IMG/VR virus record: IMGVR_UViG_2778261224_000004
Reading direction: 5' to 3' (one strand)
Length of the DNA: 47,754 nt
Origin: a virus
Lineage: Duplodnaviria; Heunggongvirae; Uroviricota; Caudoviricetes
The number at the start of each line of letters is the position of its first letter. The first letter of the stretch is position 1. This document shows, piece after piece, positions 45,440 to 45,850 of the stretch. The notes under the pieces were generated by a model, which was not told the origin of the DNA, searched no databases, and worked only from the letters and a program-made list of their open reading frames with translations. The position numbers were made by a program, and so were the translations under genes.

Positions 45440-45850
45440 AAATTGATTTTGTATAGTTCGAAACGCGCCGTTTCGAAAAGGATGATCAGGCTGCTCCATG
45501 CCTCCGGCAAGTGCCGGAGGAGGTATATTTGAGCGTAGCGACTCGAACCGGCGCGAGCTTTAGCTCGCTGCAAGGGCGAACATATTCACAGGCAAAGCCT
45601 GCGTAAGTTAAATAAAGAAAGTCTTAATAAAAGAAAGTGATTTTGCATTTATTTGTTTAGTGCATCTATTATAAAAAACCATTTGCATATACATATCAAA
45701 ACTGTGGATAACTTTATTAGCCGATGCCTGTAAAGGCGATATTTTTGCTGTGTTCCGGTTTAGAGAAAATTAATTTAGATTGTTTTTTGAACAGATATTT
45801 TATTGCGACGTAGATAATCCTCCGGTAAAACCGGATTCATCATTCAGGTG
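45440..45850. other. Candidate plasmid replication origin (oriR-like) downstream of repA
   Basis: DnaA box TTATCCACA (minus strand, 45703-45711) in an AT-rich stretch, preceded by perfect palindromes TTCGAAACG-CGC-CGTTTCGAA (45457-45477) and CCTCCGGCA-AG-TGCCGGAGG (45506-45527). Confidence 0.5.

What the first reader, a model, noticed from the sequence alone, without database searches (positions are those of the whole stretch)
45440..45850. Origin-like region downstream of repA with DnaA box and perfect palindromes
A consensus DnaA box (TTATCCACA, 45703-45711) lies in AT-rich DNA, with two perfect 9-bp-arm palindromes nearby (45457-45477, 45506-45527) that could be single-strand initiation or protein-binding structures. 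The only ORFs called here (e.g. 45202..45573) look non-coding.
Basis: partly seen in the sequence, partly recalled or inferred. Interest (0 to 1): 0.4.

Follow-up and report, generated by a model that had tools for sequence, protein, structure and literature searches.

The report
IncFII-type plasmid origin beside repA
The stretch just downstream of repA is very probably the plasmid-mode replication origin of a 47-kb E. coli phage-plasmid, built like the well-known IncFII (R1/R100) origin, so it is an ordinary though unannotated feature.

Summary
A perfect DnaA box lies at 45703-45711 (- strand) beside 78% A+T DNA. The window is a phage-plasmid, identical here to pEC488-4, whose only annotated replication initiator is an IncFII-family RepA on the - strand.

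Relatives with RepA 33-85% identical keep the same ordered module after the repA stop:
- a hairpin spacer and a DnaA box about 123-142 nt after the stop;
- three ATGCA repeats and a T-rich A+T tract;
- hairpins H1-H3/H4;
- a CCTGC(A/T)AAGCC-like motif (only CCTG invariant) on the strand antisense to repA.

Hairpins H1 and H2 show compensatory changes. H2 has 8 different perfect stems in 15 sequences, between invariant flanks. The H2 block also occurs in more than 3,100 IncFII-family plasmids, including pCD1, pSLT-type and IncFII(K).

The distal motif occurs once in phage G4, at the primase start CTG. A clade profile does not retrieve that site.

Verdict: an oriR-type origin, a new member of a known kind. 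The palindromes are selected DNA hairpins. Priming or loading is inferred, not shown. There are no Ter sites.

The parts
45853..46830 (-). repA, the IncFII-family replication initiator. The ORF is given as annotated in RefSeq. The true start is probably Met at 46701 or 46689, giving about 278-282 aa.
   Evidence: Pfam PF02387 IncFII_repA, E = 1.2e-43. Annotated as repA in pEC488-4. It is 34% identical over 155 aa to pCD1 RepA and 40% over 97 aa to R100-type RepA. Relatives are annotated at 277 aa.
45712..45852 (-). Spacer between the repA stop and the DnaA box, in the position of the IncFII 'CIS' region. It holds a hairpin, AATCCGGttttaCCGGAGGATT, at 45816-45837.
   Evidence: A TCCGG..CCGGAGG hairpin directly follows the stop in R100-type, pCD1, IncFII(K), pSLT-type (with one arm mismatch) and Salmonella relatives. 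In the Salmonella relatives, recognisable DNA similarity to the window starts only at the DnaA box, so the rest of the spacer has diverged. The CIS function is recalled from R1 literature and was not tested.
45703..45711 (-). DnaA box TTATCCACA at the repA-proximal edge of the origin.
   Evidence: It is the only perfect box in the window. The position is kept in relatives, with variants TTATTCACA, TTATCCACT, TTATCCACC, TTATGAACA and TTTTCCACA; the box is lost in L052. R1 has a consensus box in oriR (PMC5883639).
45637..45691 (-). Three ATGCA(A/C) repeats (45679-45691, 45656-45668, 45637-45651), spaced 23 and 17 bp. These are the proposed RepA binding sites.
   Evidence: ATGCA in repeats 1 and 3 is invariant across 11 sequences down to 33% RepA identity; in repeat 2 one sequence (L022) has ATACA. 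The repeats are also present in L054. R100, pCD1, IncFII(K) and pSLT-type carry a different sequence in this position, so this part changes with the RepA clade. [quoted passage not shown] Binding here is inferred.
45603..45702 (.). A+T-rich tract (78% A+T), including two T-rich 15-mers, ACTTTCTTTTATTAA (45624-45638) and ACTTTCTTTATTTAA (45608-45622). This is the proposed unwinding element.
   Evidence: Composition. The direct repeats are D10/D13. Similar CTTTCTTTTAA and TCTTTTAA elements occur in relatives, and TCNTTTAAA elements in R100-type and pCD1. Unwinding is inferred.
45587..45603 (.). Hairpin H1: CGCAGGCtttGCCTGTG on the - strand, followed by AATATG.
   Evidence: Three of its 7 pairs show changes on both sides across 11 sequences. 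Stem variants are CAGGC/GCCTG, CAGAC/GTCTG, CAACT/AGTTG and CAGCT/AGCTG. An H1-like hairpin sits at the same place in R100-type, pCD1, IncFII(K) and pSLT-type.
45544..45580 (.). Conserved block TTCGCCCTTGCAG-[H2 hairpin 45553-45568]-GCCGGTTCG. On the + strand it reads hairpin, then CTGCAAGGGCG, with the CTG at 45568-45570.
   Evidence: All 15 sequences have a perfect 5-6 bp Watson-Crick stem that starts at the G of the invariant CAG, and 8 different stems occur. Four of 6 pairs have double changes and 98.5% of cells are paired. The block is found in 3,132 PLSDB records, including pCD1, pSLT-type and IncFII(K).
45501..45520 (.).
   Evidence: It is a perfect 9-bp-arm palindrome. A G+C-rich hairpin between conserved flanks AGCAC..GCA is present in all close and 60% relatives, with indels: CCCGGC..GCCGGG, and CCCGC..GCGGG in L005. 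No double change was counted in alignment A1.
45457..45477 (.).
   Evidence: It is a perfect 9-bp-arm palindrome. It is kept in the relatives at 81-85% and 62% identity. The 33% relative L022 has a hairpin in the same alignment columns with two compensatory changes. The 60% group and L005 carry CTCCGACC there instead.
45397..45410 (+). CCTCCTGCAAAGCC, preceded by a C-rich run. It resembles the phage G4 priming start, and its CTG lies at 45401-45403. It is a candidate start of leading-strand synthesis directed away from repA.
   Evidence: It is the only match in the window, even allowing one mismatch. It matches 13 of 14 positions of G4 oric CCTACTGCAAAGCC. The 10-mer CTGCWAAGCC occurs once in the G4 genome, at the annotated primer start, where 0.02 is expected. 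CTGCWAAGC occurs on the antisense strand downstream of the origin in R100-type, pCD1, IncFII(K), pSLT-type, L004/L011, L012, L016 and L022. In the 60% group and L005 only CCTG is kept. The function is inferred.

Best explanation
Window 45397-45852 is the plasmid-mode vegetative origin of this phage-plasmid, an oriR-type origin of the IncFII replicon family. It lies immediately downstream of its own initiator gene, repA, on the - strand.

Proposed mechanism, with each step marked as shown or inferred:
1. RepA is made from the - strand and acts on the adjacent origin across a short hairpin-containing spacer. The layout is shown. Cis action is inferred from R1.
2. RepA binds the three ATGCA repeats next to the DnaA box, and host DnaA binds TTATCCACA as a helper. 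This is inferred from position, from conservation within the RepA clade, and from R1.
3. The 78% A+T tract with two T-rich 15-mers melts, and DnaB is loaded. This is inferred.
4. The fork moves away from repA, towards lower coordinates, and exposes the + strand. That strand carries the conserved hairpins H1-H4 and two invariant CTG motifs: CTGCAAGGGCG abutting H2 at 45568, and CCTGCAAAGCC at 45400. These most likely act as a single-stranded-DNA signal for starting the leading strand. Host primase priming as at the R1 'G site' and phage G4 oric is the leading candidate. Selection for hairpin formation and the sequence match to the G4 start are shown. Priming is inferred.
5. Replication is probably unidirectional, but no Tus/Ter sites enforce this here.

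The confidence value given applies to the claim that this is the oriR-type origin. My confidence that the hairpins and CTG motifs are a priming signal is about 0.35-0.4.
For: Family and context:
- RepA matches Pfam IncFII_repA at 1e-43 and is the only annotated initiator on the identical plasmid pEC488-4.
- The element is a widespread non-mobilizable phage-plasmid of about 47-49 kb and also a plaque-isolated Yersinia phage.

Anatomy shared with IncFII:
- The post-stop hairpin, DnaA box, A+T-rich repeats and H1-like hairpin come in the same order in R100-type, pCD1, IncFII(K) and pSLT-type.
- The ori lies between repA1 and repA4 in IncFII (PMC4398462).
- R1 oriR has a consensus DnaA box with RepA bound immediately downstream (PMC5883639).

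Conservation:
- In Salmonella relatives, DNA similarity begins at the DnaA box and runs to 45399.
- Eleven sequences with RepA 33-100% identical align across the whole module. More were added.

Structure:
- In the proposed structure, 90.5% of cells are paired, against 30-39% when the partners are slid.
- Nine pairs have double changes, and 0 of 500 shuffles reach the observed score.
- H2 has 8 stem variants, all perfect Watson-Crick.
- No G-T pair occurs inside the stems; the only ones are at an outer H1 position that also reads CT and TT, and in one mis-registered row.

Wider distribution:
- The H2 block is present in 3,132 plasmids.

Priming motif:
- It matches the G4 start at 13 of 14 positions.
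- CTGCWAAGCC is unique in the G4 genome and sits at the annotated primer start.
- It is always on the strand antisense to repA.
- Primase starts at the T of CTG in G4 (PMC6783573).
- In R1 the leading-strand start lies downstream of oriR, beyond two ter sites (PMC10331603).

GC skew:
- It is uniformly negative on the + strand with no switch. This fits one-directional replication with the - strand as leading strand.
Against: - No replication experiment exists for this element, so all evidence is comparative.
- A single perfect DnaA box is expected by chance in about a third of shuffles. One relative (L052) has lost it, so it may be dispensable, as is reported for R1.
- The RepA-proximal half (ATGCA repeats) has no counterpart in R1/R100, so RepA binding there is only an argument from position.
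- G4-type priming is not secured. In G4 the three stem-loops lie 5' of the CTG (PMC6783573). At the distal motif the hairpins lie 3' of it, and the 5' side does not fold better than shuffles.
- A profile of the distal motif built from the window clade does not retrieve G4 oric.
- In the 60% group the distal motif is degenerate (CCTGCCAGAC).
- In ter-bearing relatives the H2-adjacent CTG lies upstream of the ter sites, so it may not be a productive start there.
- The GC-skew argument is confounded by most genes lying on the - strand.
- The position of the R1 G site is quoted from memory; the original papers were not held.
Confidence: 0.85

Rival explanations
1. The palindromes are double-stranded binding sites for a dimeric protein, not single-strand signals. 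Candidates are RepA itself (autoregulation or handcuffing), a ParB-type partition protein, or the small protein encoded just downstream.
For: The palindromes are perfect and strictly Watson-Crick. The element encodes ParA and several ParB-like proteins. The invariant flanks of H2 (TTGCAG / GCCGGTTCG) look like sequence-specific contacts.
Against: The stem sequences change freely (8 variants of H2) while pairing is kept. A sequence-reading dimer would conserve the half-sites instead. The par genes lie about 10 kb or more away on pEC488-4. The H2 block travels with repA in plasmids whose annotated neighbouring genes are unrelated, such as pCD1, IncFII(K) and a Citrobacter KPC plasmid. H2 variants do not track RepA identity: the same GAGC stem occurs at 100, 81, 62 and 60%.
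Confidence: 0.15
2. The hairpin cluster works at the RNA level. It could be a transcription terminator or insulator protecting the origin, or a structured small RNA or 3' UTR.
For: The simple scan flags 45501-45520 (+) as terminator-like. The structure is more stable than shuffles. Compensatory changes are also the hallmark of RNA structures.
Against: No Rfam family matches within 45380-45610, even at E <= 5. No promoter-like site faces the cluster. The T tail after H3 is weak and is not kept in relatives. No G-U-type pair occurs inside the stems across the aligned sequences, which is unusual for RNA helices. The block sits inside known DNA origins in pCD1, pSLT-type and IncFII(K).
Confidence: 0.08
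3. The hairpins act as a replication-fork or helicase barrier. They would make replication one-directional, or stop the returning fork, and so stand in for the Tus/Ter sites that occupy this interval in R1/R100, pCD1 and IncFII(K).
For: In R100-type, pCD1, IncFII(K) and pSLT-type, two inverted Ter sites lie between the H2 block and the distal CTGC(A/T)AAGC motif (PMC10331603). The window has no Ter-like core. H3 and H4 occupy that interval instead.
Against: H1 and H2 coexist with Ter sites in those plasmids, so they are not substitutes. Short 6-9 bp hairpins are weak barriers, and no protein partner is evident. The 60% group lacks H4.
Confidence: 0.1
4. The DnaA box and palindromes are incidental, and the working origin lies elsewhere on the element, for example at a separate phage lytic origin.
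For: One perfect DnaA box is not significant on its own. Phage-plasmids may use a different origin for lytic growth. Nothing was tested experimentally.
Against: No other initiator, helicase or primase gene is annotated. The module is kept in order with repA across RepA identities of 33-100% and in non-phage plasmids. Parts of it are shared with established IncFII-family origins.
Confidence: 0.05

Closest known systems
oriR of IncFII plasmids R1 / R100 (NR1), compared here through the R100-like replicon of pAPEC-O2-R (L003)
   Same: - The initiator belongs to the same Pfam family.
- The origin lies immediately downstream of repA, after a hairpin-containing spacer.
- A consensus DnaA box sits at the repA-proximal edge (+142 here, +176 there).
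- It is followed by repeats, an A+T-rich tract with TCTTTTA-type elements, and an H1-like hairpin followed by ATATG.
- A CCTGCTAAGCC motif lies further downstream on the antisense strand.
- Unidirectional replication is expected, with the leading-strand start downstream of oriR (PMC10331603).
   Different: - RepA is only 40% identical over 97 aa.
- The segment next to the DnaA box is unrelated: ATGCA x3 here, aactgcaagggacttcccc... there.
- R100 has only a diverged version of the H2 block.
- R100 has two inverted Ter sites and about 550 nt between the box and the distal motif, against 308 nt and no Ter site here.
- No CopB gene is annotated upstream, and there is no Rfam CopA match.
Origins of pCD1 (Yersinia), pSLT-type IncFII(S) and IncFII(K) plasmids
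   Same: They share the block ATGnCCGCCCTTGCAG-[6-bp hairpin]-GCCGGTTCGG almost letter for letter, in the same orientation and at the same place after the A+T-rich tract and H1. They also share the distal GCTT(T/A)GCAG motif; pCD1 even has GCTTTGCAGGGAGGAG, against GCTTTGCAGGAGGAAG here.
   Different: The RepA-proximal half of these origins is R100-like, not the ATGCA type. They carry Ter sites. pCD1 and IncFII(K) also carry extra hairpins between the block and the distal motif. They have tap leader peptides, and pCD1 and pSLT-type also a CopB-type regulator. They are conjugative or virulence plasmids, not phages.
Phage G4 origin of complementary-strand synthesis (G4 oric) and the G4-type single-strand initiation signals reported for R1/R100, F and ColIb (the plasmid signals are recalled from memory)
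   Same: - The window + strand reads CCTCCTGCAAAGCC, against CCTACTGCAAAGCC at the exact G4 primer start.
- A pyrimidine-rich 5' flank precedes it.
- Clustered stable hairpins lie nearby on the same strand.
- A second CTGCAA abuts hairpin H2, with H3 and H4 5' of it, which is the G4 layout (PMC6783573).
   Different: - At the distal motif the hairpins are 3' of the CTG, not 5' as in G4, and the 5' side is unstructured.
- There is no similarity to G4 beyond the 14-mer.
- The clade profile does not find G4 oric.
- No priming assay has been done.
IncB/IncI-complex origins (pMU720, ColIb-P9), recalled from memory and not examined here
   Same: As recalled, they have cis-acting RepA, a CIS spacer, a DnaA box followed by short RepA boxes ending in GCAA, and a single-strand initiation signal near the ori.
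   Different: This is a lead only.

Membership tests
IncFII-family (RepFIIA-type) replicon with oriR-type origin | The initiator belongs to the IncFII RepA protein family. | tested here: met
   Pfam PF02387, E = 1.2e-43, covering profile positions 2-272 of 275. BLASTP against pCD1 RepA gives 6e-19 and against R100-type RepA 2e-19.
IncFII-family (RepFIIA-type) replicon with oriR-type origin | The origin lies directly downstream of repA, separated by a spacer of about 130-180 nt (CIS). | tested here: met
   The conserved non-coding module starts 142 nt after the stop. A post-stop TCCGG..CCGGAGG hairpin is shared with R100-type, pCD1 and IncFII(K), and with pSLT-type with one arm mismatch. This is positional and comparative evidence only; replication was not assayed.
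IncFII-family (RepFIIA-type) replicon with oriR-type origin | A DnaA box sits at the repA-proximal edge of the origin, next to the RepA binding region and an A+T-rich tract. | tested here: met
   TTATCCACA lies at 45703-45711, followed by repeats and a 78% A+T tract. The position is conserved in relatives. The arrangement in R1 is described in PMC5883639.
IncFII-family (RepFIIA-type) replicon with oriR-type origin | An R1/R100-type RepA-binding sequence follows the DnaA box (aactgcaaggga..., TCNTTTAAA elements). | tested here: not met
   The window and its clade have ATGCA x3 and TTTCTTT(T)ATT repeats instead. R100-type, pCD1, IncFII(K) and pSLT-type share the R1-type sequence. This is expected if binding sites co-evolve with a RepA that is about 34-40% identical over its conserved core.
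IncFII-family (RepFIIA-type) replicon with oriR-type origin | The conserved block CCGCCCTTGCAG-hairpin-GCCGGTTCGG lies at the repA-distal edge of the origin. This feature was defined here from pCD1, pSLT-type and IncFII(K). | tested here: met
   The window carries it at 45544-45580. All 15 sequences have a perfect stem in register, and 3,132 PLSDB records match the block.
IncFII-family (RepFIIA-type) replicon with oriR-type origin | Tus-binding Ter sites lie between oriR and the leading-strand start. | tested here: not met
   No GTTGTAAC core, even with one mismatch, occurs in the intergenic region. Ter sites are present in R100-type, pCD1, IncFII(K) and pSLT-type (PMC10331603).
IncFII-family (RepFIIA-type) replicon with oriR-type origin | Copy-number control by CopA-type antisense RNA, a Tap leader peptide and the CopB repressor. 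| tested here: inconclusive
   A 16-bp stem-loop plus a terminator-like hairpin with a T run lies antisense to the repA leader at 46717-46828 (+). There is no Rfam CopA match at E <= 5. No CopB or tap gene is annotated next to repA in pEC488-4.
G4-type (primase plus SSB) single-strand initiation signal | The primer starts at the T of a 5'-CTG-3' on the template strand. | tested here: inconclusive
   Two conserved CTGs lie on the + strand, at 45401-45403 and 45568-45570. The first sits in a 13/14 match to the G4 start. No priming data exist.
G4-type (primase plus SSB) single-strand initiation signal | Three stable stem-loops lie 5' of the CTG on the template (PMC6783573). | tested here: inconclusive
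   This is not met at the distal CTG: the 5' side folds no better than shuffles in the window and most relatives. It is met in layout at the H2-adjacent CTG, where H4, H3 and H2 lie 5' of it on the + strand.
G4-type (primase plus SSB) single-strand initiation signal | It supports SSB- and primase-dependent complementary-strand synthesis on single-stranded DNA. | not testable with these tools
   This needs an M13-delta-ori plaque assay or an in vitro priming assay.

The most novel reading that the evidence does not exclude
The small hairpin with invariant flanks (CCGCCCTTGCAG-[6-bp variable stem]-GCCGGTTCGG) and the distal C-rich CCTGC(A/T)AAGCC motif may together form a host-machinery signal, for primase priming or helicase loading, that has not been characterised. 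It would be shared by thousands of IncFII-family replicons, including pCD1, pSLT-type, IncFII(K) and this phage-plasmid clade. It could have escaped study because the laboratory models R1 and R100 carry only a degenerate copy of the hairpin block. In this phage-plasmid clade it would work without Ter sites, in a compact origin of about 315 bp.
Probability: 0.25. Interest if true: 0.5.

Novelty: new member of a known kind. Interest (0 to 1): 0.3.

Why it matters
It gives a function to a 630-bp stretch that is unannotated in every matching record listed in the searches here, in a common family of E. coli, Salmonella and Klebsiella phage-plasmids. It also defines a compact candidate minimal replicon: repA plus about 450 bp.

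The comparison shows which origin parts change with the initiator (the ATGCA repeats) and which stay fixed across very distant IncFII-family replicons (the H2 hairpin block and the CTGC(A/T)AAGC motif). This pattern points to the fixed parts as the ones read by host proteins. If the fixed elements prove to be priming or loading signals, they would matter for replication, incompatibility typing and curing strategies of clinically important IncFII(K), pSLT and pCD1 plasmids.

As an origin call in itself, the finding is ordinary.

Tried and rejected
- Rfam at gathering threshold on the whole window, and at E <= 5 on 45150-47150: no hit within the 45380-45610 hairpin cluster. The only hit in the origin region was a chance-level snoRNA match at 45663-45726 (E = 0.67). 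The sub-threshold hits upstream of repA reflect a hairpin plus terminator.
- Megablast and blastn of the intergenic region against plasmids: only the same phage-plasmid family and two 75% Salmonella relatives. Classical IncFII was not reached at DNA level until a consensus of the H2 block was used.
- Genome-contig scans: nothing useful. One found no relative and the other only a Buchnera pLeu plasmid.
- A long-range helix, 45386-45394 with 45574-45581, appeared in the + strand fold. It is not conserved in relatives and was rejected.
- Inferring the working strand from G-T against A-C asymmetry: the stems are all Watson-Crick. The only G-T position (H1 outer pair) also reads A-T, C-T and T-T, so it is not under pairing selection. 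No strand call was possible.
- An nhmmer profile of the distal motif against the G4 genome: no hit at oric. The G4 resemblance is therefore carried by the 10-14-mer only.
- A G4-like stem-loop cluster 5' of the distal CTG: absent in the window and most relatives, and present only in part of the 60% group (L017, L018).
- Ter sites in the window: none.
- Literature: the original papers on R1 oriR and the G site (Masai and Arai), the in vivo start (Bernander et al.), the IncB ori (Betteridge et al.) and the del Solar review are not held. Statements about them are from memory and are marked as such. A sequence-string search for the H2 block found only unrelated primers. The vB_YpM_HQ103 paper concerns a different 32-kb phage.
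- The F plasmid ssiA region was fetched, but no secure correspondence was found.
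Full report
**What the window is.** The 1.9 kb around the finding is 100% identical to E. coli plasmid pEC488-4. It is at least 97% identical to about 60 other non-mobilizable plasmids of 46-52 kb from Escherichia, Salmonella and Klebsiella, and 99% identical to three plaque-isolated Yersinia phages, vB_YpM_39, 41 and 44. The full annotation of pEC488-4 shows a complete tailed-phage gene set, including terminase, portal, capsid, sheath and tube, baseplate and tail fibres. It also shows ParA, ParB-like proteins and a toxin-antitoxin pair. There is a single replication initiator, RepA, and no helicase, primase or second initiator. The window is therefore a phage-plasmid whose plasmid-state replication should depend on repA.

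**repA and the intergenic region.** repA lies on the - strand at 45853-46830 as annotated. It matches Pfam IncFII_repA at E = 1.2e-43. It is distant from the classical proteins: 40% identity over 97 aa to an R100-type RepA and 34% over 155 aa to pCD1 RepA. The next gene on the - strand starts at about 45221. The 631 nt between them carry no annotated feature in any of the 40 listed records, out of 65 matching. The long ORF 45202..45573 has no Pfam hit.

**Check of the observation.**
- TTATCCACA is at 45703-45711 on the - strand and is the only perfect DnaA box in the window. One such box is unremarkable on its own, since 34 of 100 shuffles have at least one.
- The neighbouring 45603-45702 is 78% A+T.
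- The second lies at 45501-45520, not 45506-45527.
- Only five perfect palindromes with arms of at least 9 bp and loops of at most 6 nt exist in 47.7 kb, where simulations give 1.1. Two of them sit 24 nt apart here.
- Folded as single-stranded DNA, 45380-45610 is about 3 sd more stable than shuffles on either strand.

**Anatomy, read on the repA-sense (- strand)**:

| Coordinates | Element |
|---|---|
| 45855-45853 | repA stop codon |
| 45837-45816 | hairpin AATCCGGttttaCCGGAGGATT |
| 45711-45703 | DnaA box |
| 45691-45637 | three ATGCA(A/C) repeats, spaced 23 and 17 bp |
| 45638-45608 | two T-rich 15-mers, ACTTTCTTT(T)ATT(T)AA |
| 45603-45587 | hairpin H1, CGCAGGCtttGCCTGTG, then AATATG |
| 45580-45544 | block TTCGCCCTTGCAG-[H2: GCGAGC taaa GCTCGC]-GCCGGTTCG |
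| 45520-45501 | hairpin H3 |
| 45477-45457 | hairpin H4 |
| 45422-45412 | mini-hairpin GGCCtacGGCC |
| 45410-45397 | GGCTTTGCAGGAGG, followed by a G-rich run |

**Comparative evidence.** I collected relatives whose RepA is 85, 81, 63, 62, about 60, 37 and 33% identical. They came from plasmid, viral, metagenome and read-assembly collections. They include non-phage plasmids: a mobilizable Citrobacter KPC plasmid and an Arsenophonus plasmid.
- All keep the same order of elements after the repA stop.
- The DnaA box sits 123-142 nt after the stop. It reads TTATCCACA in most relatives, with 1-2-mismatch variants in several, and is lost in one (L052). That pattern fits a helper site rather than an essential one.
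- In the Salmonella relatives, DNA similarity to the window starts exactly at the DnaA box and ends at 45399.

**Hairpin covariation.** On the 11-sequence alignment, the four hairpins are paired in 90.5% of cells, against 30-39% when the partners are slid by 1-3 columns. Nine pairs change on both sides, and no shuffle out of 500 reaches the observed covariation. H2 is the clearest case. In 15 sequences a perfect 5-6 bp stem always starts at the G of an invariant CAG and ends just before GCCGGTTCG. Eight different stem sequences occur. No G-T pair occurs inside the stems; the only ones are at an outer H1 position that is not consistently paired, and in one mis-registered row. I read this as selection for hairpin formation at the DNA level rather than in an RNA.

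- H3 is conserved as a G+C-rich hairpin with indels. It shows no double change in the 11-sequence alignment.
- H4 is kept in the relatives at 62-85% identity. The 33% relative has a hairpin in the same columns with two compensatory changes. The 60% group and the Citrobacter plasmid carry CTCCGACC there instead.

**Link to established IncFII-family origins.** A consensus of the H1-H2 region finds 3,132 plasmid records. In pCD1, a pSLT-type plasmid and an IncFII(K) plasmid the layout is:
1. post-stop hairpin;
2. DnaA box at about +170-180 (degenerate, TTACTCACA, in the pSLT-type plasmid);
3. an R100-like RepA-proximal sequence with TCNTTTAAA elements;
4. an A+T-rich tract;
5. an H1-like hairpin;
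6. ATGCCCGCCCTTGCAG-[6-bp hairpin]-GCCGGTTCGG;
7. two inverted Ter sites;
8. further hairpins (in pCD1 and IncFII(K));
9. GCTT(T/A)GCAG.

The R100-type replicon has the same plan, with a diverged version of the H2 block. The literature held here agrees on several points:
- The IncFII ori lies between repA1 and repA4, and the repA4 region holds the ter sites (PMC4398462).
- R1 oriR is 188 bp, with a consensus DnaA box and RepA bound immediately downstream of it (PMC5883639).
- In R1 two ter sites lie between the minimal origin and the start site of leading-strand synthesis (PMC10331603).

The window has no Ter-like core. Only 308 nt separate its DnaA box from the distal motif, against 550 nt in the R100-type replicon.

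**Which parts vary with RepA.** The segment next to the DnaA box differs between the window's clade (ATGCA repeats, kept down to 33% RepA identity) and the R100, pCD1, IncFII(K) and pSLT-type clade. The H2 block and the distal motif are shared by both clades. I infer that the proximal repeats are the RepA-specific binding sites and that the distal blocks are read by host proteins. This is inference only.

**The distal motif and priming: evidence for.**
- On the + strand the motif reads CCTCCTGCAAAGCC (45397-45410), which matches 13 of 14 positions of CCTACTGCAAAGCC in phage G4.
- The G4 record annotates the RNA primer at 3970-3997 and the origin of complementary-strand synthesis at 3998, so the primer starts at this CTG.
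- Primase starts at the T of that CTG (PMC6783573).
- The plasmid-derived 10-mer CTGCWAAGCC occurs once in the G4 genome, at that site, where 0.02 is expected.
- CTGCWAAGC occurs downstream of the origin, always on the strand antisense to repA, in R100-type, pCD1, IncFII(K), pSLT-type and the closer relatives.
- A primer started at T45402 would grow towards lower coordinates, away from repA. That is the direction of the productive fork in R1.
- GC skew is negative on the + strand across the whole window, with no switch. This fits one-directional replication but is confounded by gene orientation.

**The distal motif and priming: evidence against.**
- In G4 the three stem-loops lie 5' of the CTG. 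At the distal motif the hairpins lie 3' of it, and the 5' side does not fold better than shuffles in the window and most relatives.
- A profile of the motif built from the window clade does not retrieve G4 oric.
- In the 60% group only CCTG is kept.

**A second candidate CTG.** A second invariant CTG at 45568-45570, within CTGCAAGGGCG, abuts H2 and has H3 and H4 5' of it on the + strand. That matches the G4 layout. In ter-bearing relatives, however, this site lies upstream of the ter sites. I therefore treat primase priming as the leading hypothesis for the hairpin and CTG module, at about 0.35-0.4, and not as established. My recollection that R1 has a primase-only 'G site' about 400 bp downstream of oriR comes from Masai and Arai (1989) and Bernander et al. 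(1992). Those papers could not be read here.

**Rivals considered.**
- Duplex binding sites for a dimeric protein: disfavoured, because stem sequences vary freely while pairing is kept.
- An RNA element or terminator: there is no Rfam hit, no facing promoter, no conserved T tail and no G-U pairs.
- A fork barrier replacing Ter: possible for H3/H4, but not for H1/H2, which coexist with Ter sites elsewhere.
- An origin elsewhere: there is no other initiator, and the module is linked to repA even in non-phage plasmids.

**Verdict.** The region is an unannotated but conventional oriR-type origin of an IncFII-family replicon carried by a phage-plasmid. It is a new member of a known kind. Its particulars are a clade-specific RepA-proximal half, no Ter sites and a compact layout. 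The most interesting by-product is the strictly conserved H2 hairpin block and the G4-start-like motif, which are shared with thousands of IncFII-family plasmids. No function for them was found in the searchable literature.

Noticed in passing
window 46715-46830 (+ strand); promoter-like site 47015-46988 (- strand): Antisense to the repA leader there is a perfect 16-bp stem with a 36-nt loop (46717-46732 / 46769-46784). It is followed by a 16-bp hairpin (15 of 16 paired, 46790-46823) and a T run. This looks like a copy-number-control RNA of about 110 nt. Rfam gives only sub-threshold, unrelated hits (Thr_leader, CsrC) and no CopA. A TTGACT-16-TATGAT promoter for repA lies upstream.
   Followed up: partly
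window 39559-39855 (-), 40227-40299 (+), 40324-40412 (+): Rfam gathering-level hits to ryfA, isrK and C4 antisense RNA. C4 is the antisense RNA of the P1/P7 immunity I region, so an antirepressor control system of that type may be present on this element.
   Followed up: no
window 28380-28452 (-): A tRNA gene (Rfam tRNA, 67 bits) lies within the phage-plasmid.
   Followed up: no
window 45241-45255, 45246-45257 with 45309-45320, and - strand 45264-45236: TAGGAAA-type inverted repeats (AGGAAAagaTTTCCT; ATCTTTTCCTAT / ATAGGAAATGAT) overlap a promoter-like site just upstream of the small gene 44922-45221. The Salmonella relative keeps aggaaatattttcct at the same place. This is probably an operator for the downstream operon and is separate from the origin.
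   Followed up: no
PLSDB-wide; L057 (pCD1) about 1610-1655, L058 (IncFII(K)) 1224-1264, L059 (pSLT-type) 1601-1643: The block ATGCCCGCCCTTGCAG-[6-bp hairpin with a variable stem]-GCCGGTTCGG matches 3,132 plasmid records, mostly Klebsiella, Salmonella, Escherichia, Enterobacter, Citrobacter and Yersinia. No gene is annotated under the match in nearly all listed records. The R100-type replicon has only a diverged version.
   Followed up: partly
L052 1953-1961; L048 2491-2499: One 60% relative has lost the DnaA box (TTTTCCCCT) while keeping the rest of the module. A relative with 98% identical RepA carries TTATTCACA. The box therefore tolerates change, which fits an auxiliary role.
   Followed up: partly
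L003 about 3012-3030 and 3148-3172; also L057, L058 and L059 downstream of the H2 block: Two inverted Ter (Tus-binding) sites, AGTTACAACA and TGTTGTAACTA, lie between the H2-type block and the CTGC(A/T)AAGC motif in R100-type and pCD1; the IncFII(K) and pSLT-type copies have one-base variants in one site (AGTTACAGCA; TGATGTAACTA). The phage-plasmid clade has none, so the interval has been remodelled.
   Followed up: partly
window 43744-44396 (-): A HigB/RelE-like toxin (Gp49/DUF891 family, 44043-44396) with an HTH antitoxin (43744-44043) lies about 1 kb from the origin. This is a typical plasmid-addiction pair.
   Followed up: no
window 37638-37658, 38103-38120, 42369-42392: These are the other three perfect 9-bp-arm palindromes in the window. 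42369-42392 is AAAACCGCCcggcaaGGCGGTTTT, with terminator-like shape on both strands. They were not examined.
   Followed up: no
whole window: GC skew is negative on the + strand in every 2-kb window, with no sign change. This would fit one-directional replication with the - strand as leading strand, but most genes also lie on the - strand.
   Followed up: partly
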